The position numbers and the translations under genes are program-made. DNA of 59,954 nt, counting the filler, from Sphacelaria rigidula (lineage: Eukaryota), in assembly GCA_964200075.2 (NCBI GenBank). It is 8 parts of 8 records of this genome, joined end to end, with 100 filler letters (N's around TTAATTAATTAA, not from the genome) between each part and the next. Parts side by side here need not be neighbours in the genome. Positions count along the whole stretch, not along the records: positions 22,523 to 29,929 come from CAXNAA020015066.1; 7 more parts are not named here. One strand, 5' to 3'. The notes under the pieces are model-generated. The model saw only the letters and a list, made by a program, of their open reading frames with translations, made no database searches and was not told where the DNA came from. This document shows positions 14,916 to 56,460 of this stretch, in pieces; the stretch's first letter is position 1; each line of letters starts with the position of its first letter.

Positions 14916-15015
14916 NNNNNNNNNNNNNNNNNNNNNNNNNNNNNNNNNNNNNNNNNNNNTTAATTAATTAANNNNNNNNNNNNNNNNNNNNNNNNNNNNN
15001 NNNNNNNNNNNNNNN
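14916..15015. other. Artificial contig spacer
   Basis: N44-TTAATTAATTAA-N44. Confidence 0.99.
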
Positions 15016-18679: not shown

Positions 18680-18750
18680 GCTCCCTCTCGAAAGGGATGC
18701 GTGGTCAATGGTCAAACGACTAAGGCAAGCAACACATAAGCACGCCCCCC
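18680..18750 (+). mobile_element. 5'-truncated LINE 3' end (C-tail family), copy 1
   Basis: GCTCC.TCTCGAAAGGGATGCGTGGTCAATGGTCAAACGACTAAGGCAAGCAAC...ACG then C6; flanked by duplicated CTCCCC(C)TGCCCCGACTC. Confidence 0.85.
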
Positions 18751-19686
18751 TCCCTCCCCCTGCCCCGACTCCAATGGTTAGGCCTTCCTCACCATGGTCA
18801 TTTGACCCCCTATGATGCAATCATGCCACCACGTATACAGTTTCTGATATACGTGGTACACCACCCGGGGCGATAACAAATCCCCACTCCCTCATTGCCC
18901 TATTCTGAGCGAATTCCACCGACCAACGGGCATACCATTCGTGATACACGGAATATCCCACGCAGGCCAAAAGTGAATCCGAAGCTTACTTCCATTACAA
19001 GTACGCCCTCCTGTATCTTGGCCTTCTCTTTCATCTCTTTATATAATCAAGGCGACGATAAATCTCCAGGTCTACTTTCCAAACAGACAGTCCCTTCTCC
19101 ACCCCCTGCCCCGACTTCAACGCATACGCCACCAGGGCGCCAGCAATTCTCAAATTCGACTTTCTCAGCAGGCCAGCCCTCCCCCCTCGGCCCTCCGGCC
19201 TCCTCCGATGCAAGTCTTGCCTGCCACGAGGCACGAAATATCCGATATACGAAGTACACCACCCAGGGCGACAACAATCGCCAATGTCGACTTCCTCGAA
19301 AAGCAAGCTGTCCGCCGTTTCCACCCGTAATATCACGCGTGTATCACCCAAGGCGACAACAACTCCCGAGCTCGACTCCTCCATAGGCGAGCTTTTTCCT
19401 TCCCGCCCCCCCGGCAACAAAGAATATTACAGGTAGATGATAAACGAAGTGTCCGACTCAGGTCGACAACAACCCTCAAACACGAATCTCTGCATGGACA
19501 AGCTCTCCTCCGCCCCCGCCGCCACTCCTACGCGTATACCCCCAGGCCGACAACAAATATGATACTCGTTCTTTTCCACAAGCAAGCCCATTCCCCGACG
19601 CTTCCACTTCCACGCCTATGCCACCAGGGTCACGTCAAACCCCAAGCTCCACGTCCTCAACGAATCATCCCCCTCCCTCAGACCCT

Positions 19687-19890
19687 GCTCCGTCTCGAAA
19701 GGGATGCATGACCAATGGTCAAACGACTAAGGCAAGCAACAAATGAAAACACACCAAACAAAAAAAAAACCAACAAAANNNNNNNNNNCCCCCCCCCCCC
19801 ACCCCCCCCCCCCCCCGCAAAGGGGAGCGACCCAAAAGCAAAAAACACAAAAACAAAAAAAAACAGGGCCCCCCCCCCCCCCCCCCCCCC
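19687..19890 (+). mobile_element. C-tail LINE 3' end, copy 2 (tail region low quality, contains a gap)
   Basis: Same core 19687-19746; CCCTCCCTCAG(A/G)CCC duplicated at ~19671 and ~19888 after poly-C. Confidence 0.75.
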
Positions 19891-21890: not shown

Positions 21891-22318
21891 ACAGTTGTGC
21901 CAATGCTACAACAAAAATTGACTTTCAATTCTGATGCAGGAATGCTTCTGCAATAAAAAGACCTCAAAAGATCTCCGGTAAAAATCGCAAAATAATTTAA
22001 ATAGAGATTAACATCCCAGTAGGTACCAAGTAAACTTCCCGCCCGTAAGTGTATAACATATCTGTTGGCAGTTGGTAGTCACAGCTGACGTGAATATCAA
22101 GATTATTTGACGCCTGAGCATACCACAATTACACCTTTTCACGCGTTCCATATTTTCGTATTGTCGTCACGTGTATTCGAACCTATGTAATGTGTCTTCA
22201 CAACATATGCTGAAAAATGTACAACCGGCATTAACTCCCCCGGGACTTGCCCTGCACTTTGCTCGATCCGAAGAGAATTCGATTAGCACTCCCTGTAGCT
22301 CATCTACTTTCACTGACG

Positions 22319-22371
<53 letters not shown>

Positions 22372-22422
22372 CCCGACCCCCCCCCGCCCCCCTCTCTACC
22401 CCCTCCTCGCTGTGAGTGCTCG

Positions 22423-22522
22423 NNNNNNNNNNNNNNNNNNNNNNNNNNNNNNNNNNNNNNNNNNNNTTAATTAATTAANNNNNNNNNNNNNNNNNNNNNN
22501 NNNNNNNNNNNNNNNNNNNNNN
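22423..22522. other. Artificial contig spacer
   Basis: N44-TTAATTAATTAA-N44. Confidence 0.99.
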
Positions 22523-24579
22523 CACTGTTTTGGGCTTGAGCCTCATCTCGAAGTTAAATCTCAATTCGCACAATTTGTTGTTCCTTGGATATTTTCTTAG
22601 GTTTTTGCTACGTGGGCCCCCCAACAGCGGCAGTGTACGACTGCAACGATGGGTACAGTGATCCTACGGCGAAGGAGTACCATCATCACAAGTCCAAAAC
22701 AAAAACGTAAACAGTAGCCACAAGGCCCCTGCCATCAAATCAACGATCACTGATGTCACACCAGACACGCTACGCATACCGTTTTTGACATATTTGTAAT
22801 GAACCATGCACAACGAACAGCACGGACTTGGGCAACGGTAGTCACTGCTCCGAACTAGCTTTCACCATGAAACTGCAGTGGCTGTTGGTATGAAAGGAAG
22901 AGACGGGGAACAAGTAAAAAACCATTTGCCTAGGGTTAGTCCGATGCTCTGGAGTGTGATATGTTGAATCGTTTCATTATTTCACGGAATAAAAAAGGTG
23001 CTCTTGGGTGCGGGGGAATTCTGCAACGCTCATCGTGTAAATTTTGTGCCACAAGACCCACTAGCATTGCCTGGGGAGAAATGGTCATCGCCCATGTTTC
23101 TTCACACTCCGACCAAAAACTGCAACTAACGATTTGTCGCAGCCCATCCATGACTACGACAGCCACAGCATAGATACACATGCATATAGGGAATTCACTT
23201 ATTCACGCATCTTGCACATATCATATTTTCAAGGTATTCTCCCGATTAAGGATTTTGCAGACACCATCCGCGACCTTCACTCGAGTATATCGCTCGAAAT
23301 AAAAACATCGTAGTGAGGAATTTTCCTCGTCACGAGATATCTTGCGATTCGCTACAGAGACTGGAGCGATACGAAACGGCCGAGCTTCAAGACCTGAGGT
23401 ACGGCATCCTCGGGAAAGCGGTGTACTGGAAGCCAGCGAATTTTCGACATATCATGTAGTATCTGATGGAGATAGGTGACCACTTTGGGACAAACAGAAC
23501 CGTTGTGCATAGATAACGCACTCTACCAATGCACGTGACACAAAAGAAGACACGTAATCGCCGACAACTTCCTCCTACTCCCGCACCACATCCTCCATCA
23601 CTCACGAGTACTCCATGGCCTGGTGGTGTTCCTCATACACGTGGGCAGTCGACGATAGGAGCAAGGGGACGGAATGGATCCAGGACACGAACGACAGCTG
23701 TCCACAGCGCGCGAAAATCATATCCCCTCGCTTCTTCGCTTCCAACCCGCGGCTCTGCCAAAAATTTAACGCGCCAGCCACTCCCGCCCTGTTCTTCCGA
23801 ACAGTCCCCACGCTGAAAATGCCGTGCATGAGGAGGCACAGCTGGAGCATGGGGGAGGTGAAGAAGTTGTTCATGGCAACATGCACCCCAGTGTGCTCGA
23901 GCTGCGGCCCGAACTTATCACAGGCTTTTAGAAGGACGTACAGAACCATTCGGGTTGTGCGACCGAGAGGGCAGTTGGCCCATTCGCTGAGGTGGCAGTC
24001 TCCTTCGAAGCCAGCGTGCACGACGCTCACGAAACAATATCCTGTCCGGCAACATACCGCCCACACCTTGATACCTGCCAGACGCGCGAGGGTAGCACAC
24101 CGGCATTTTGGACTATTCTGTGTCAATCACTTTCTTGTGTGCCAACAAGCTCTGTCCGCGAATATTCGCCGAATGTTAAGCAGAATCATGAGCACCCGAC
24201 CTTACACCGCGTTCAGTAGAGGACGATGGCATGCCGAGGTGTTGGCGTCGTTGTGCCCGGCGCAGACATGCGGCGCACATACTGACCCCGCACTCAATCG
24301 AATGTCGGGTCTAAATCGGTCAGGGGTCCTCGGGGATTACTTGTGACATAAACACGCAACATTCATGCGAACACAGCTGTTCTAAACTTCAAATTCCGTC
24401 ATCTGCGATGTCTGTCCACCTCACGTTGACTTCATCCCATGTTCCAGTCCATGGCGGTTCGGCAAAACAAAAATAAATGATGCGGTGGTTGGAAGATGGA
24501 AATGAGTGCGGCGGCGGTGTGAATGACTGTACCAAGACATCTCCACATCCGTCCTGTAACCCCCCCCCCCTCACCTTGT

Positions 24580-24658
24580 GCTCCGTCTCGAAAGGGATGC
24601 GTGGTCAATGGTCAAATGACTAAGGCAAGCAACAAATGAGTACGCCCCCCCGCCCCCC
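24580..24658 (+). mobile_element. C-tail LINE 3' end, copy 3 (in piggyBac intron)
   Basis: Core ends GAGTACG then C7GC6; preceded by C11-TCACCTTG, an imperfect TSD with the downstream CCCCCCTTG. Confidence 0.85.
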
Positions 24659-25582
24659 TTGACGGCAGCAATTACGTTTTGGGAGCCACTGTGGAAATGT
24701 CGCCTACTATTGCCGACTACGAGCCGTATGAAGCGACATGCGTTCATTTTTGCCTCGGATTTTTTCGGCTCCCCCCCCCTCCGATCACCCGCCATCGGTG
24801 TCAATACTACGGCACGAAACATCACGAGCACACAACCCGGCAGCCGTCTCCATCCTCCAAAATATTGTTTGACATGGTGTGAAGCGTTTTGCCAGCGACG
24901 AAAACAGGCGAGCAGCGATGTCGCGGCGTCAGCTGCAGTCACACGGATGGGCTAAATCACAAGGAGGGAGGTTCCCCGGAAAGATGAGAAGATCCCCTAC
25001 TCAGGAGTTGCGGTGTACATAATGCTGAGAAAGCCTTCTTCGGGCGACTGCACATGAACGTGAGCTTGTCGGGCTGCTCTATGCGCAATAAAGGCCACAC
25101 GATGTCATATTTATCTCGCTCTCGCGAACGGAGACCAACACACGTCATCTTTGCTCGATCACCTCCCCGTTGTGCGAGCTTCTTGCACGAAACGAGACCG
25201 TAATCGTTATTGCAAACAAAACATGCAGCACTTGCCGTGTTTGATGGGCTTGTTCTTGTTAAACCTGATGAGAAAGTGGGCAACCCTTGCAGTGCACTTC
25301 ACCATCTGCTCGTCGAAGGCTATCCACAACCCGACCTCGGCAGCCTCACTCCACTCCCCATTCAGTATTTCCTCCCGTCTCCTGTGGAGCGAAAGAGGGT
25401 TAGGAGGGGGTGTTCTGTGCTACGGTGGGGGATGCGAGCGTCCGGGTTCTGCGCACAGACATCCTCGCATTCAAAACGATCAGAGGCCGGTGGTGGCAAC
25501 CCCACACAGATGTGATATCAAGTCTGGTTCTCGGTCATGTTTGGGCTGTTTTACCACGAAATCGAGGGGGGAACGGGAGACG

Positions 25583-25665
25583 CGTACTCGCTTGTTGCTT
25601 GCCTTAGTCGTTTGACCATTGACCACGAATCCCTTTCGAGATGGAGCACCGGTCCTACTCCTAAT
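25583..25665 (-). mobile_element. C-tail LINE 3' end, copy 4 (in piggyBac intron)
   Basis: Reverse complement of the same core; followed on its own strand by C-rich CGTCTCCCGTTCCCCCC. Confidence 0.8.
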
Positions 25666-26629
25666 GAAGCCACGTTCGATACTCGGTTCTTCCATACATT
25701 ACAAAACCCTTGACATATCTAATGCCCGTCCTGTTTCGCCGTCTGAGCCAAACATGGAAACACGCTGTCGCGCCCCCCTCCCCCCCATACATGTACCCAC
25801 CCACGCTCTCTGGAAGTATGTATACCTGATATGTGCTTTTCCGTCGTAGCCCTTCTCCCCTCTCTGTGAAAGGCCCCCATGTGCGAGGTGGAAGAAGCGC
25901 AACATGAGGAGGAGAAAAAAATCGCGCGGCATGGTCTTTCGGACATGCGGAAAGTTGTGCTTCCCCCCCCTCCCCCAATGCATGGTCATCCGCGGGAGCC
26001 TCGTGATCCCCATCTCGAGTTTAATTCCTAGCGCTCTATATATAGACATGTTCTTTCCGGAACCCGCCTTCTGGTACTCTGGTGTTGCCAAGCATTCTGG
26101 TTTTCCGGCGGTGTCGCTGTTCTCGTTTTTGCTGCTTGCCGTCATGCCCGGTCGGTTCCTCCTCCGCCGTGCACAAGGCGACGTAGTCATTCGTCTGCAA
26201 GCCGAGAACGGCAGCAGTGGCAAACATCCATGGAGGTCTTGCATCATAAATGAGGCGGCAGAGACACATCCCATGGATTCACTGGTTGCAAAAGCCGCCC
26301 GGAAAAACGGTGGCGGCATGCCAAACATTGATATGACCGCCGTGCAGAGATCGCCAGGAATCACATCACGAACGTGTATGAAGGGCAACAACGACGCCCG
26401 GAAGGTTGTACGTGTTGCGTGATGTGGATAACAGATCAATGGAGGGGGCGCCCGATAAATAGCAGAGGTGCATCGCGCAAGTCGCTTCGGTACTTTTCCC
26501 GACGTACCAGGATCGGGATACCCGACCGACGGCGATGAATCCCAGTTGCCATTAACGAGCCGAAGCGTTGTCAAACACATCAACTTGTCCAGTCTCCAAC
26601 CAGAGAGTTTCAGTGTCAATCATAAAATC

Positions 26630-26838
26630 CAAGTGCAGGTCGAGTAGAGTATACTCAATTACGGGGTAGTTTTAAAGTCGTACTTGAGGTGCACAAATTG
26701 GGGGGAAGATTTTAGGGATCGCTTTCCAGTTTCTTTTTTAGGTACGACTCCCAACACTATACGCCAATTTGAGTACCTCTTCTAGTACGTCTTCCAAAAT
26801 ACCCCGCAAATGAGTATACTCTACTCGACCTGCACTTG
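26630..26838. mobile_element. MITE of the same family as 10588-10792, opposite orientation, in piggyBac intron
   Basis: TIR CAAGTGCAGGTCGAGTAGAGTATACTCA; interior colinear with the reverse complement of 10588-10792; TSD not recognisable. Confidence 0.88.
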
Positions 26839-28429
26839 ACATAATAACATGGCGGTTCAACACGTGCCCAGGCAAACGCTGGGTACCGCTATGATTTTGA
26901 GGCGTCATCGGGGGCGATAACGCGCGAGTGCATTGGTCACAAATACTACATATTTTGCATACATCTATCCTCACGTATTTCACGATGAGATCGATCGCCT
27001 CCGGCGGGAACATGATGTCGAAGAATGACAGCACGAGATCCTCCACGCTCCCTTCGACCACGGCTTTATACTCCGCGCGGTCCACCTTCGGCAGGCGCTC
27101 CAGGGTTTTCTCCGATAGGGTGAACTCCGCGCTTCGACGCCGCCCCGCTTCGCGTTTGGGGCATGTTTCGTCTACTTTCAACCCCTCTGTGGTCCAGTTC
27201 GCCGAACCCACACCATCGGAATCGCCATCAGGGTCCACGCTCCTGTCCCCGTCGTCGTCGGGACGCTCGTCGTCGGCGTCGCCCTGGTGTTAGCGGATAT
27301 TGCGTGTGTCACGCACACGGGGGAGAGAGAAAGGGAATATCGCTGATGGACTCGAAAACACTCGAGACAGAGTGCATCGTACCTGTATTCCCACCGCGCG
27401 CGATGGAAAACGAAACTCGTGCTGTACAGTCCACACATACGCGCAAGTCATACACAATTCACAGTAGAAAGCTCCATGTGGCCCAAGCCTTTTTCATGTC
27501 GCATTGGAAGCAAGGAGAACAGGCAGTCCCGCGCTATTTGTACTTCATATGGCCCTCACCTCTTTCACATCATACTGCATAAAGCACGCACTCACGGACA
27601 CGCGCGCACACACTCTCAAGGCACGGTACATGCAGACAGTGCGGACAACACAGGCCGCCGGTACTGCACTCAAGCGAACTGTGACTCTTGACGAACTTCA
27701 CTGTCTTGCTGCGATCGCAACCTCGGCTTCTCCGTATTGTGCTATCAAAATTTCTGGCATAATTCCATCTTACCGTAAATACCATAGTGTTTCAGGAAGT
27801 AGCGTACAGCAGATCCGTGCTGGCTCAGTTTGGTTGGCCCAACCTGCACGCACCCGCCTTGCGTGTCTTGCCCCGATCACAGCACCCGACTATTACTGAA
27901 GTACATGGGAGGACGCAGTACACAGCTACACAGCCGTCCCTTGGCGATTTTTACAACCTTTCTTGGTTTCGACAGCACTTTGATCCCACCCCGAATCTGT
28001 GAAGACCGTTTCACTCGAGACGAAACAGCCAAAACACCATGAAGCGCTTCGCGAGGAGATATATTTCTTTACCTTGAGTTACCCCCCATCTGTGGGAGGT
28101 GAATCTAAATGCTGGCCTACTGCAATGTTTTGGGCGAAACACTCTTTTATCACCGACCGCCTGTCTGAAATACGTGAATGCTGTGGAATTAGTCGTTCGC
28201 CGATAGTGATCACAATATAAAACCGGCAGTCTGATCGATGCTAGCATCATAAGTATAGATCTGAATACCACCATCAACACCACAAACATAGAGTGGCGGG
28301 TGGGTCTGTATCCGATAAAACATTGTAATGCTCCGAAAAGTGTGGATTTCTCAACTGCTCCGGAAAGTGCGGGTGCCTCGTTTTCGAGGTTTCTGCCAGT
28401 ACAAAACTACGCCAGAGATGTTCGAAGAC

Positions 28430-29500
28430 ATCAACTATGTAGCGAACACCCTACAGCCGTATCGAATACTCGTATCCTTCAATCTCACCTCTACCGGTGT
28501 GTTCTTCGAAGGCTTCATCCTGGCGACCGTCTTGTATACTTCTTGGTACAGCTTCTCGGCAATTTTTTATGCATCCTTCAACACTGCCGCCCACGTTTTA
28601 GGGATCGATGCCTGCCCGCCTCGCGTCTCCAGTTCGTCCTTCCCACCCTTCAACTCACCGTCAGACCCGTAATACGGTTCGGCCTCTCCATCATCGGCTT
28701 CTTCACCTCTGCCTCTATTTTCTTCGGCTTTCCCTGACGTTCCAGTCCCAACCCGCCGACACCCCAGTTCTTGTGCTTACCATAAAAAAACTTGCCGGCC
28801 TTGCGACGGGCCCCCTGTTGAATTTCAACCACTCGTCGTTCGGGTATCTCGCGCGCTCGTATGAATCAAAGAAATCATATAGCTCGCCTGTCTCAACTCT
28901 ATTGCCGACGTTTCCGAGACGTGTCCTATGATGCTTGCACTCCGTCTCTTGTTTCCCTGTTTATCTAATAGGACTACCCTAACCTGATCTGGTTCGTGTT
29001 TCAATGTTTGTTTCACAAAATTGTCCAGACATAGCGCGGTGTCAGTGCCGCTTATTTGTCGTCCACGCGTGTTTAGGGCAGCCGGGAGAGTGCGGTTAAA
29101 GAATATTTGAAATAAGGCATATTGGAAGGAACGGATGGATCTGGGGGTGTACGTTTGGTCCAACACGTTGAGTCTACGGCCCCGTCCCACTTGTCCGTAC
29201 CCTTTCAACGGTACTTTGACATCCTCGGTGGTTTGCGGGACGGTAGTCCATCGATACCTTAAGTCATCTACATAAATACCTCACTCATGCTGCTGCGGGC
29301 TCCACCCTTTTTGGCTGCAAATTAGTCTGGGCATAACGGAGGTTCGACACAGGACCAAGAGTAGGATGCGGGCCACCGGTATCGACTCTTTCGTCGGTCG
29401 GGGGTAGGCAGGATATTTCAGTGCACAGTCGATGACCTGTGGTATGGATAACGGATGTACATATGCAGTGAGTGTGATGGAAGTCAATCTCCAAATCAGG
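28430..29500 (-). pseudogene. Decayed coding-like sequence of unknown family
   Basis: Chain of protein-like fragments (IYVDDLRY...KGYGQ...LNTRG; ELYDFFDSYE...KPKKIEAEVKK; KIAEKLYQEVYK) broken by stops and frameshifts; no family recognised. Confidence 0.3.
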
Positions 29501-29929
29501 ACTACAAAAGGCAACTCTTTACCGTCGTCGTAAGTTGAGACCGGCCTTTTCCCAGCGTCTACACCCGTATAATCGAGCGAACTCGAGGTAGTCTTTGTTC
29601 GTAATGTCCAGGCAGAAATGATCCTGCAAAATAGCATGGTGTGTGTTAGTTCAATGTGCGCGTATTTAGTGTGTATCAGTGTTGTCAGGTCACAAATCAG
29701 TTGTCGCTGGATAACTAAAGTTGACATATGCTCATCACTGGTACCCACAACAGACACTAATAATCGTCCCTGATGTAGCACTCCGAAAAACGTTCTTCGA
29801 GTCTTCCCTCTTTGTGTATCGTTGAATAGAGCAGCTCGTGTTCGGTTCAGTCGGCGACTGTTGTTTCTTTTCTTCCCCCCCCCCCTATTTTTTTGCCACT
29901 AAATTTCAACAACTGCAGACACTTTCTAC

Positions 29930-30029
29930 NNNNNNNNNNNNNNNNNNNNNNNNNNNNNNNNNNNNNNNNNNNNTTAATTAATTAANNNNNNNNNNNNNNN
30001 NNNNNNNNNNNNNNNNNNNNNNNNNNNNN
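29930..30029. other. Artificial contig spacer
   Basis: N44-TTAATTAATTAA-N44. Confidence 0.99.
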
Positions 30030-37436: not shown

Positions 37437-37536
37437 NNNNNNNNNNNNNNNNNNNNNNNNNNNNNNNNNNNNNNNNNNNNTTAATTAATTAANNNNNNNN
37501 NNNNNNNNNNNNNNNNNNNNNNNNNNNNNNNNNNNN
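37437..37536. other. Artificial contig spacer
   Basis: N44-TTAATTAATTAA-N44. Confidence 0.99.
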
Positions 37537-44942: not shown

Positions 44943-45042
44943 NNNNNNNNNNNNNNNNNNNNNNNNNNNNNNNNNNNNNNNNNNNNTTAATTAATTAANN
45001 NNNNNNNNNNNNNNNNNNNNNNNNNNNNNNNNNNNNNNNNNN
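44943..45042. other. Artificial contig spacer
   Basis: N44-TTAATTAATTAA-N44. Confidence 0.99.
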
Positions 45043-52448: not shown

Positions 52449-52548
52449 NNNNNNNNNNNNNNNNNNNNNNNNNNNNNNNNNNNNNNNNNNNNTTAATTAA
52501 TTAANNNNNNNNNNNNNNNNNNNNNNNNNNNNNNNNNNNNNNNNNNNN
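52449..52548. other. Artificial contig spacer
   Basis: N44-TTAATTAATTAA-N44. Confidence 0.99.
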
Positions 52549-56029: not shown

Positions 56030-56460
56030 GGAGGGGGGTGGGGGGGTGGGGGGGGGGGGCGTACCCATTTGTTGCTTGCCCTAGTCGTTTGTCCATTGAC
56101 CACGCGCCTCTATCAAAACGGAGCGTCGCTCCCACTCCTTTAGAGACACCTCCAACATTTGGGAGTCCATGGCGTTTCTTCCATGCATTGCACAAAAAAC
56201 TTTTACGTATATTTTTCCCTTCCCGCTTCGCAGTCTGTAGCCACCACCTACCTCCCAGCATAGCGACCATTCCCTCGCAACAACCGAATGTACCAAACGA
56301 TTTTTTCATGTCAAATTCGTTTCGTTCCCACATTTCCCCCTCAAACACGTCCCGCCACCCCGTGTATACTTCACATTCTCCGACATAATGAGTTATACTC
56401 TGCATTTCTTCGCCACAGGGGCAATTTATTCTGCGCATATACTTTTTTCTCCCTTGCATG
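56030..56460 (-). mobile_element. C-tail LINE, longer 3' fragment with C-terminal zinc-knuckle-like region (copy 5)
   Basis: CPCGEEMQSITHYVGECEVY (CCHC-like LINE C-terminus), then the shared 3' core ending GGTACG and a long C-rich tract. Confidence 0.85.

What the first reader, a model, noticed from the sequence alone, without database searches (positions are those of the whole stretch)
22600..27283. piggyBac transposase gene split by at least four spliceosomal introns
Seen: exon joins fall inside conserved piggyBac motifs and are phase-compatible (IVKY|TNDY phase 0, HI-R phase 2, KPIKH-G-IKVW phase 1, then phase 2). The exon with the first catalytic Asp (IAFDEQM, 25236-25381) is missing from the ORF track. 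All three recognised secondary insertions (one MITE, two LINE ends) lie in introns, none in exons. A further exon may start at 22663, and an acceptor with a CTAAC branch point at 27284 implies an upstream exon. Canonical piggyBac transposases are mostly single-ORF, so this is either an intron-rich algal piggyBac lineage or a domesticated PGBD-like gene. No TTAA-bounded TIR was found.
Basis: partly seen in the sequence, partly recalled or inferred. Interest (0 to 1): 0.72.

Follow-up and report, generated by a model that had tools for sequence, protein, structure and literature searches.

The report
Broken, intron-split piggyBac transposase gene
This is a real piggyBac transposon gene split by true introns, as is usual in brown algae, but this copy is incomplete and disabled, and spliced piggyBac elements of this kind are already described in Ectocarpus.

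Summary
The minus strand of 23606-27283 holds four exons (A-D) of a piggyBac (PF13843) transposase. They are separated by three complete introns of 780, 444 and 1161 bp, with an open splice site at each outer end. Gene models from Undaria, Pylaiella and Ectocarpus align without gap or overlap across the B/C and C/D joins. In 29 of 34 and 26 of 32 close relatives, similarity or the reading frame breaks exactly at exon D's two borders, so those two introns are old and shared.

Exon B carries a 4-bp insertion that shifts the frame into a stop. The second catalytic Asp is Asn, where 67 of 76 relatives have Asp. Intron 3 has a GC donor. The window is an artificial chain of about 7.4-kb unplaced contigs, so the gene runs off its contig at 22523. 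The third-Asp exon, the Cys-rich tail and both transposon ends are absent. The proposed exon at 22663 is unsupported.

A 2025 curated Ectocarpus library already lists PiggyBac-1_Ec32 (9969 bp, TTAA) with spliced genes, and most Ectocarpus DNA transposons have spliced transposase genes.

Verdict: a defective, truncated copy from a known kind of element. Domestication is not excluded but has little support.

The parts
22423..22522 (.). Artificial 100-bp linker (44 N + TTAATTAATTAA + 44 N). It marks the left end of the 7407-bp contig 22523-29929 that carries the gene.
   Evidence: the same linker recurs every 7506-7507 bases across the window.
22523..23605 (-). Sequence downstream of exon D. It starts with the donor GTGAGT at 23605, holds no recognisable further exon, and its last ~60 bases (22523-22582) are high-copy repeat at the contig end.
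   Evidence: no third-Asp exon found; very high depth in bin 22523-22695, and joints from 22582/22583 into the other repeat copies; donor sequence.
23606..24074 (-). Exon D, 469 nt, entering in phase 1 and leaving in phase 2. It holds the second catalytic position, read here as Asn (VAMNNFFTS, codon 23869-23871).
   Evidence: PF13843 at E 1.2e-10; 67 of 76 close relatives have Asp; exon borders.
24075..25235 (-). Intron 3, 1161 nt, GCAAGT...CAG (GC-AG).
   Evidence: The join KPIKH-G-IKVW is contiguous in P0172, P0154 and P0025.
24578..24662 (+). High-copy ~85-bp unit ending in a C run, flanked by C runs. It has the features of a 5'-truncated RTE-X-type LINE 3' end.
   Evidence: copies and sequence; depth about 5x10^6 against about 10^3, with tandem 'goes back' joints. 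Features match RTEX entries ('(C)n 3'', 'C-rich', 'can be present in tandem') in PMC12477816 supplementary file 1. No sequence comparison with those entries was possible.
25236..25381 (-). Exon C, 146 nt, entering in phase 2 and leaving in phase 1. The first catalytic Asp is present (IAFDEQM).
   Evidence: It aligns at 54-58% identity to P0025, P0154 and P0172.
25382..25825 (-). Intron 2, 444 nt, GTATAC...CAG, with CTAAC about 20 nt before the AG.
25562..25649 (-). Second copy of the RTE-X-like unit, in the opposite orientation to the first.
   Evidence: arms 93% complementary..
25826..26194 (-). Exon B, 369 nt in the window. A 4-bp ATAT insertion at 26038-26041 shifts the frame into a stop (HVYI*). 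Without it the exon would be 365 nt and would end in phase 2.
   Evidence: Undaria P0172 aligns to the two halves in two different frames; all four laid runs leave these 4 letters out.
26195..26974 (-). Intron 1, 780 nt, GTGAGG...CAG.
26630..26838 (.). 209-bp MITE-like element with 58-nt inverted ends, lying inside intron 1.
   Evidence: arms 88% complementary; a second copy at 84% identity at about 10589-10792 in another piece of the window.
26975..27283 (-). Exon A, 309 nt, ending in phase 0 at IVKY. It is preceded by CAG at 27286-27284. The only in-frame Met is in DIMFPP.
   Evidence: P0142 aligns over 20 residues (27037-26978). By eye, Undaria P0172 has a similar acidic region and further N-terminal residues upstream.

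Best explanation
This is a relic, non-functional and assembly-truncated copy of a brown-algal piggyBac transposon whose transposase gene is split by spliceosomal introns.

In an intact element of this kind the pre-mRNA is spliced to give a DDD transposase. That enzyme binds short terminal inverted repeats and cuts and pastes the element at TTAA. This part is inferred from what is known of the superfamily and from the Ectocarpus PiggyBac-1_Ec32 description.

Only exons A-D are present here, which is roughly Pfam positions 37-281 of 349.

Shown:
- A 4-bp insertion breaks exon B.
- The second catalytic Asp is Asn.
- The exon with the third Asp, the Cys-rich tail and both element ends are not on the contig.
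- Later insertions (one MITE-like element and two RTE-X-like LINE ends) sit in the introns.

Inferred: this copy can neither make an active transposase nor be mobilised as it stands.

A ~96% similar copy in another sampled alga lacks the 4-bp insertion and may be transcribed.
For: - Family: PF13843 on exon D at E 1.2e-10. 150 or more relatives were found by HMMER, the closest being P0167 at 77% identity.
- Exon structure: the Undaria, Pylaiella and Ectocarpus gene models P0172, P0154 and P0025 align contiguously across B/C and C/D.
- Shared intron before exon D: of 34 relatives >=38% identical that could be tested, 29 lose the conserved KPxxxG motif exactly at exon D's first residue. The 5 that keep it are all annotated spliced models.
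- Shared intron after exon D: of 32 relatives that reach exon D's end, 26 stop within one residue of it. This is what a phase-2 GT(G/A)AG donor produces.
- Contrast with distant relatives: below 38% identity, 40 of 48 keep the motif and only 2 of 11 stop at the exon end. Metagenome piggyBacs L001 and L002 align to P0120 as one HSP of 506-581 residues, so they have no introns.
- Transposon nature of the family: one 90% cluster has 11 members, one of them seen on 6 contigs. Ectocarpus has 4 piggyBac families with 1588 copies, and PiggyBac-1_Ec32 is autonomous with spliced genes and a TTAA duplication (PMC12477816 Table 1 and supplementary file 1).
- Defects: the frameshift, Asn at the second Asp, no third-Asp exon and no TTAA plus CCC terminus.
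- Position: the contig ends in high-copy repeat.
Against: - The runs of 'organism A' carry a copy about 96% alike that lacks the 4-bp insertion. Among the 12 indels listed (5 more were not shown), none other lies in an exon. The break may therefore be recent, strain-specific or an assembly error.
- Exon D differs less than its flanking introns (11 of 470 against 56 of 1142, Fisher p = 0.019). Exon B shows 3.5-4.7% difference, within the intron range of 2.3-8.3%.
- In run X6 (RNA only by the tool's guess, one study) contigs over the four exons have depth 83-158, against 0-21 over introns and 1-3 upstream. One 470-nt contig spans exactly 23605-24074. By the tool's own caveats this is at most a weak hint of a spliced transcript.
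- In DNA-like run X2 a single 1612-nt contig runs through exon D and both flanks. This does not look like a young high-copy family.
- No second copy is available to define the element ends.
Confidence: 0.7

Rival explanations
1. It is a domesticated piggyBac-derived host gene (PGBD-like). The gene would be kept for a non-transposition role, be low-copy, be conserved between related algae, and be transcribed and spliced. The Asp-to-Asn change would reflect loss of catalysis that is tolerated.
For: - Organism A holds a ~96% similar copy with the same exon-intron layout and no frameshift.
- Exon D is less diverged than its flanking introns (p = 0.019).
- Depth in the possible RNA run X6 is enriched over exons.
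- A 1612-nt unbranched contig in DNA-like run X2 suggests low copy number.
- No TTAA plus CCC terminus lies within 2.6 kb upstream of exon A.
Against: - The window copy has a premature stop in exon B.
- Exon B diverges about as fast as the introns.
- The family is multi-copy in other assemblies, and 9 of 76 close relatives also carry substitutions at the second Asp, as decaying transposon copies do.
- The locus sits on a short unplaced contig bounded by repeats.
- Synteny and dN/dS could not be tested.
- Whether organism A also has Asn is unknown, because that position was not in the rows shown.
Confidence: 0.13
2. It is part of a still-functional autonomous piggyBac element. The frameshift would be an assembly or strain artefact, and the rest of the element (3' exons, second gene, ends) would lie on other contigs.
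For: - The 4-bp difference lies in a (TA)n run and is absent from all four laid runs.
- The first Asp and most motifs are intact.
- Splice sites are canonical or GC-AG.
- An autonomous spliced piggyBac exists in Ectocarpus.
Against: - Asn replaces the second catalytic Asp, whereas the closest relative P0167 has Asp. From recalled knowledge of piggyBac mutagenesis, this residue is essential.
- Three nested insertions and about 4% divergence from the nearest copy point to age.
- There is no sign of several near-identical copies in the laid DNA-like runs.
Confidence: 0.1
3. The gaps are not introns. On this view the copy is an originally intronless piggyBac broken up by later insertions.
For: - Each of the three gaps holds a recognisable repeat insertion.
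- No spliced joint across the gaps was visible in the 15 joint rows shown, out of 147.
Against: - The insertions account for only 209 of 780, 88 of 444 and 85 of 1161 bases.
- All gaps begin with GT or GC and end with CAG at positions that restore the protein exactly.
- Relatives break at the same two borders of exon D.
- A curated relative in Ectocarpus is described as spliced.
Confidence: 0.03

Closest known systems
PiggyBac-1_Ec32 of Ectocarpus (curated TE library, Genome Biol 2025, PMC12477816, supplementary file 1 row 113; seen as table rows)
   Same: Both are brown-algal piggyBac elements with a spliced, intron-containing transposase gene. Nested RTE-X and non-autonomous insertions in large DNA transposons are also noted in the same table.
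   Different: The published element is complete: 9969 bp, CCCTT-AAGGG 13-bp inverted repeats, TTAA duplication and a second tail-to-tail gene. None of these is present on this contig. Ectocarpus gene models of the family are only about 34-55% identical to exons C and D here, so this is probably a different family.
Canonical single-ORF piggyBac transposases (PF13843), for example relatives P0070, P0072 and P0120 and metagenome loci L001 and L002
   Same: The domain is the same, and the conserved motifs run in the same order: TNxY, DEQM, KPxxxG-IKxW, DNFFTS.
   Different: Those are contiguous in genomic DNA. Here the gene is split into at least four exons. They are only about 30-35% identical over exon D.
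Domesticated piggyBac-derived genes of animals (PGBD family; recalled, not tested in any call)
   Same: They are multi-exon or immobile piggyBac-derived genes without transposon ends, some with altered catalytic residues.
   Different: Those are conserved single-copy host genes with intact reading frames. Here the frame is broken, and copy number, synteny and selection are untested.

Membership tests
piggyBac superfamily transposase (Pfam PF13843, DDE_Tnp_1_7) | Significant match to the family profile | tested here: met
   exon D scores 41.7 bits (cut-off 22.4), E 1.2e-10, profile positions 152-281 of 349. Exon B is sub-threshold at 16.2 bits.
piggyBac superfamily transposase (Pfam PF13843, DDE_Tnp_1_7) | First catalytic Asp (D in the DE[QS]M motif) | tested here: met
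   IAFDEQM aligns with the DEQM/DESM motif of relatives.
piggyBac superfamily transposase (Pfam PF13843, DDE_Tnp_1_7) | Second catalytic Asp (D in the DNFFTS motif) | tested here: not met
   the window has Asn (VAMNNFFTS). 67 of 76 relatives >=38% identical and 83 of 87 more distant ones have Asp.
piggyBac superfamily transposase (Pfam PF13843, DDE_Tnp_1_7) | Third catalytic Asp (GGVDxxDQ) and C-terminal Cys-rich domain | tested here: not met
   no match anywhere in the window. The contig ends 1083 bp after exon D, so the region may simply lie off the contig.
piggyBac transposon (mobile element) | Short terminal inverted repeats starting with CCC, flanked by a TTAA duplication | tested here: inconclusive
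   the contig has no TTAACCC or GGGTTAA and only two TTAA sites upstream of the gene (29096, 29259). One end must lie beyond the contig, and no second copy is available to define the ends.
Brown-algal spliced piggyBac (PiggyBac-1_Ec32 type) | Transposase gene interrupted by spliceosomal introns | tested here: met
   canonical or GC-AG borders, exact restoration of the protein, and borders of exon D shared by 29 of 34 and 26 of 32 close relatives. No direct spliced read was seen.
Brown-algal spliced piggyBac (PiggyBac-1_Ec32 type) | CCCTT-AAGGG termini and a tail-to-tail second gene | tested here: inconclusive
   no TTAACCCTT with up to 1 mismatch in 22523-29929. The tail side of the gene is cut off by the contig end.
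Brown-algal spliced piggyBac (PiggyBac-1_Ec32 type) | Sequence similarity to the curated consensus | not testable with these tools
   The consensus sequence is not among the supplementary files held as text.
Domesticated piggyBac-derived gene | Intact reading frame under purifying selection | tested here: not met
   there is a premature stop in exon B in the window. For organism A's copy the test is inconclusive: exon D 2.3% against introns 4.9%, p = 0.019, but exon B 3.5-4.7%.
Domesticated piggyBac-derived gene | Single-copy syntenic orthologues across species | not testable with these tools
   No whole genome is held for the window, and no eukaryotic genome DNA of relatives could be reached.

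The most novel reading that the evidence does not exclude
The locus is a lineage-specific domesticated piggyBac gene of brown algae. It would be kept at one place in at least two related algae, be spliced and transcribed, and have its catalytic centre already disabled (Asp to Asn), so that it acts as a DNA-binding or regulatory protein. The frameshift in the window would be a strain polymorphism or an assembly error.
Probability: 0.1. Interest if true: 0.5.

Novelty: new member of a known kind. Interest (0 to 1): 0.17.

Why it matters
It matters mostly for annotation.
- In brown algae, transposase genes, piggyBac included, are split by introns. Single-ORF or unspliced protein searches therefore under-call them, a point the 2025 Ectocarpus TE paper also makes.
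- The case shows how a chain of unplaced contigs can pass for a continuous locus and cut a gene without this being obvious.
- Two intron positions are shared down to about 38% identity, with a possible intron loss or shift in one sub-lineage. This gives a small handle on how old introns in mobile-element genes are.
- It does not open a new biological question unless the domestication reading proves true.

Tried and rejected
- The whole genome of the window is not held, so copy number, other copies, element ends and synteny could not be examined.
- Word-index protein search among longer proteins found no hit. Among proteins of similar length it found only two.
- The metagenome contig scan gave 4 loci, all distant intronless piggyBacs and useful only as a contrast. 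The viral contig scan found none.
- Sequencing runs: no RNA holder is listed on record. The four laid runs are contigs about 95-97% alike, not the source strain.
- None of the 15 joint rows shown is a GT-AG or GC-AG joint across the three introns, and 132 rows were not shown. Direct splice evidence is therefore missing.
- X6 record 30 (289 nt, only 149 nt laid at 25830-25978) may continue into exon C, but this could not be seen.
- Whether organism A has Asp or Asn at 23869-23871 could not be read, because that row was not shown.
- A profile search for the third-Asp region found nothing in the contig. Relaxed tblastn with C-terminal pieces of relatives gave only noise. The weak likeness of 22611-22655 (...YTAAVGGPT*) to the PxxxxxYxxxxGGVD motif was rejected as unsupported.
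- Searches for the terminus found nothing in the contig.
- Pfam on seven upstream ORFs (27124-29898) gave nothing above threshold, so the 5' exon with the start codon was not found.
- Rfam on the contig found nothing.
- Earlier notes of this scan held nothing.
- The idea that insertions avoid exons was considered and rejected as not significant (0.27 by chance).

Full report
**What the window is.** The window is not one continuous locus. Linkers of 44 N + TTAATTAATTAA + 44 N recur at 7409, 14916, 22423, 29930, 37437, 44943 and 52449, so the six pieces between linkers measure 7407, 7407, 7407, 7407, 7406 and 7406 bp. This is the pattern of unplaced contigs sorted by size and strung together. 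The finding lies on the contig 22523-29929. Its gene runs on the minus strand towards 22523, so its 3' part is cut off by the contig end. No whole genome is held for the window.

**Check of the observation.** Three-frame translation, tblastn with relatives and a splice-site table give four exons on the minus strand:

| Exon | Coordinates | Length | Notes |
|---|---|---|---|
| A | 27283-26975 | 309 nt | ends IVKY, phase 0 |
| B | 26194-25826 | 369 nt | starts TNDY |
| C | 25381-25236 | 146 nt | IAFDEQM, the first catalytic Asp |
| D | 24074-23606 | 469 nt | starts (G)IKVW |

- The introns are 780 nt (GTGAGG...CAG), 444 nt (GTATAC...CAG, with CTAAC about 20 nt before the AG) and 1161 nt (GCAAGT...CAG, a GC-AG intron).
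- A GTGAGT donor follows exon D, and a CAG precedes exon A.
- Pfam PF13843 matches exon D at E 1.2e-10 and 41.7 bits, against a cut-off of 22.4. It matches the exon B frame weakly, at 16.2 bits. The frames holding exons A and C gave no family at E <= 0.1.

- Exon B is not in one frame. The TNDY frame ends in a stop (HVYI*) at 26036. The downstream homology (RALGIKLEMGIT...KAHI) lies in the next frame.
- Undaria model P0172 aligns to the two halves in the two frames and reads HVYGMLDVLITMGIT across the break.
- The cause is a 4-bp ATAT at 26038-26041 within a TA run. All four sequencing runs that I laid leave these four letters out.
- The stated phases 0, 2, 1, 2 hold only for the 365-nt version of exon B.
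- The second catalytic position reads Asn (VAMNNFFTS). The closest relative, P0167 at 77% identity, has AMDNYFTS. 67 of 76 relatives >=38% identical have Asp there.
- A profile of the third-Asp region (PxxxxYNxxMGGVDxxDQ...) built from 12 relatives found nothing in the contig. The best E among 2466 six-frame pieces of the window was 1.7, in another piece. The suggested exon at 22663 is therefore unsupported.
- The CTAAC before 27284 is only about 7 nt from the AG.
- Three of three insertions lying in introns has a chance probability of about 0.27.

**Are the gaps introns?** Several lines say yes.
- The recognisable insertions fill only 209 of 780, 88 of 444 and 85 of 1161 bases.
- The joins restore the protein exactly. 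P0172, P0154 and P0025 align without gap or overlap across B/C (residue 247/248 of P0172) and C/D (residue 296).
- A full HMMER search with exon D listed the 150 best relatives. The close ones are mostly short proteins called on genomic contigs.
- Of 34 relatives >=38% identical that could be tested at exon D's start, 29 lose the conserved KPxxxG motif exactly there. The 5 that keep it are the annotated spliced models from Pylaiella, Ectocarpus and Undaria.
- Of 32 relatives that reach exon D's end, 26 stop within one residue of it. A phase-2 donor G|TGA or G|TAA produces exactly this. Two of the six exceptions whose sequences I printed, P0004 and P0168, also end in PYE or PYR, so their alignments were merely cut short.
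- Below 38% identity, 40 of 48 keep the motif and only 2 of 11 stop at the exon end.
- Metagenome piggyBacs L001 and L002 align to P0120 in a single HSP of 506-581 residues.

The two introns around exon D are therefore old and shared within a brown-algal clade, and absent from canonical piggyBacs.

I did not see direct splice reads.
- No run is on record as RNA.
- In X6, which is RNA only by the tool's guess and comes from one study, contigs over the exons have depth 83-158. Contigs over introns have depth 0-21, and depth upstream of exon A is 1-3.
- One 470-nt contig in X6 spans exactly 23605-24074, while a DNA-like contig (X2, 1612 nt) runs through both borders.
- By the tool's own caveats this is a weak hint only.

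**What kind of thing it is.** Named relatives come from Ectocarpus sp. CCAP 1310/34, Pylaiella littoralis and Undaria pinnatifida. The source is therefore very probably a brown alga.

The family behaves as a transposon.
- One 90% cluster has 11 members, one of which was seen on 6 contigs.
- 9 of 76 close relatives carry substitutions at the second Asp.
- Some gene models are visibly damaged. P0015 joins exon B directly to exon D, and P0025 loses similarity just after the DNFF motif.

The literature settles the novelty question.
- The 2025 Ectocarpus TE paper (PMC12477816; I read passages, Table 1 and rows of supplementary file 1) lists 4 piggyBac families with 1588 copies.
- It lists an autonomous PiggyBac-1_Ec32 of 9969 bp, with CCCTT-AAGGG 13-bp inverted repeats, a TTAA duplication and 'tail-to-tail spliced genes'.
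- The word 'spliced' occurs in 23 rows of that table. They cover Tc1-mariner, EnSpm, Harbinger, P, hAT, KDZ, MuDR and Helitron entries.
- Two literature searches found no other paper on piggyBac in brown algae.

**State of this copy.** It lacks a start codon on the contig, and no upstream ORF had a family match. It has the exon B frameshift and the Asn. It lacks the third-Asp exon, the Cys-rich tail and any TTAA plus CCC terminus. It carries three nested insertions. Its contig ends in high-copy repeat. The most likely reading is an old, dead copy.

**Evidence against that reading.**
- Organism A's ~96% similar copy has no frameshift. None of the other 11 listed indels lies in an exon, though 5 more were not shown.
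- Exon D differs at 11 of 470 positions, against 56 of 1142 in its flanking introns (p = 0.019). Exon B, at 3.5-4.7%, is within the intron range of 2.3-8.3%.
- A kept gene, either domesticated or recently active, is therefore not excluded. I give domestication about 0.1-0.13.

**The insertions.**
- The element at 26630-26838 has 58-nt inverted ends that are 88% complementary. A second copy at 84% identity lies in another piece of the window.
- The ~85-bp units at 24578-24662 (+) and 25562-25649 (-) end in a C run and are flanked by C runs.
- In the laid runs these units reach depth up to about 5x10^6, against about 10^3 elsewhere, and they form tandem joints.
- These features match the RTE-X LINE entries of the Ectocarpus table: '(C)n 3'', C-rich target, 'can be present in tandem'. 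I could not compare sequences.

**Verdict.** It is an incomplete, disabled member of an already described kind of element, so interest is low.

Noticed in passing
window 7409-7508, 14916-15015, 22423-22522, 29930-30029, 37437-37536, 44943-45042, 52449-52548: The window is an artificial chain of eight pieces joined by identical 100-bp linkers (44 N + TTAATTAATTAA + 44 N). The six inner pieces measure 7407, 7407, 7407, 7407, 7406 and 7406 bp, which is the pattern of unplaced contigs sorted by size. Any feature that spans a linker is not real.
   Followed up: yes
window 24578-24662, 25562-25649, 18680-18761, 19686-19746, about 56048-56124, and 22523-22582: A very abundant ~70-85-bp unit ends in a C run. 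Depth in the laid runs is thousands of times that of the flanks, and many tandem joints are seen. The features fit the RTE-X LINE 3' ends described for Ectocarpus, but no sequence comparison was possible.
   Followed up: partly
window about 10589-10792: A second copy (84% over 210 bp) of the MITE-like element of intron 1 lies in another piece of the window. Its family and target duplication were not worked out.
   Followed up: no
window 3649-4173 (-): This ORF matches the copia-type gag family PF14223 at E 7.8e-11, so it is a fragment of an LTR retrotransposon.
   Followed up: no
window about 22300-22420: A homopolymer-rich G/C run of roughly 60 bases or more lies at the end of the preceding piece, just before the linker. 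This may be why that contig ends there.
   Followed up: no
relatives P0010, P0156, P0047: These relatives read straight on past exon D's end (PYRCxGGxGxEMRF). The tail resembles the QPEMRKDY stretch that follows this boundary in P0017. One sub-lineage may therefore have lost or shifted this intron.
   Followed up: no
relative P0015 (Ectocarpus sp. CCAP 1310/34 gene model): This annotated model joins exon B directly to exon D and so lacks the exon with the first catalytic Asp. It is either a deleted copy or a mis-predicted model.
   Followed up: no
window 28825-29280 (-): This ORF begins with GIYVDDL, which recalls the reverse-transcriptase YxDD motif, but it has no Pfam match at E <= 0.1.
   Followed up: partly
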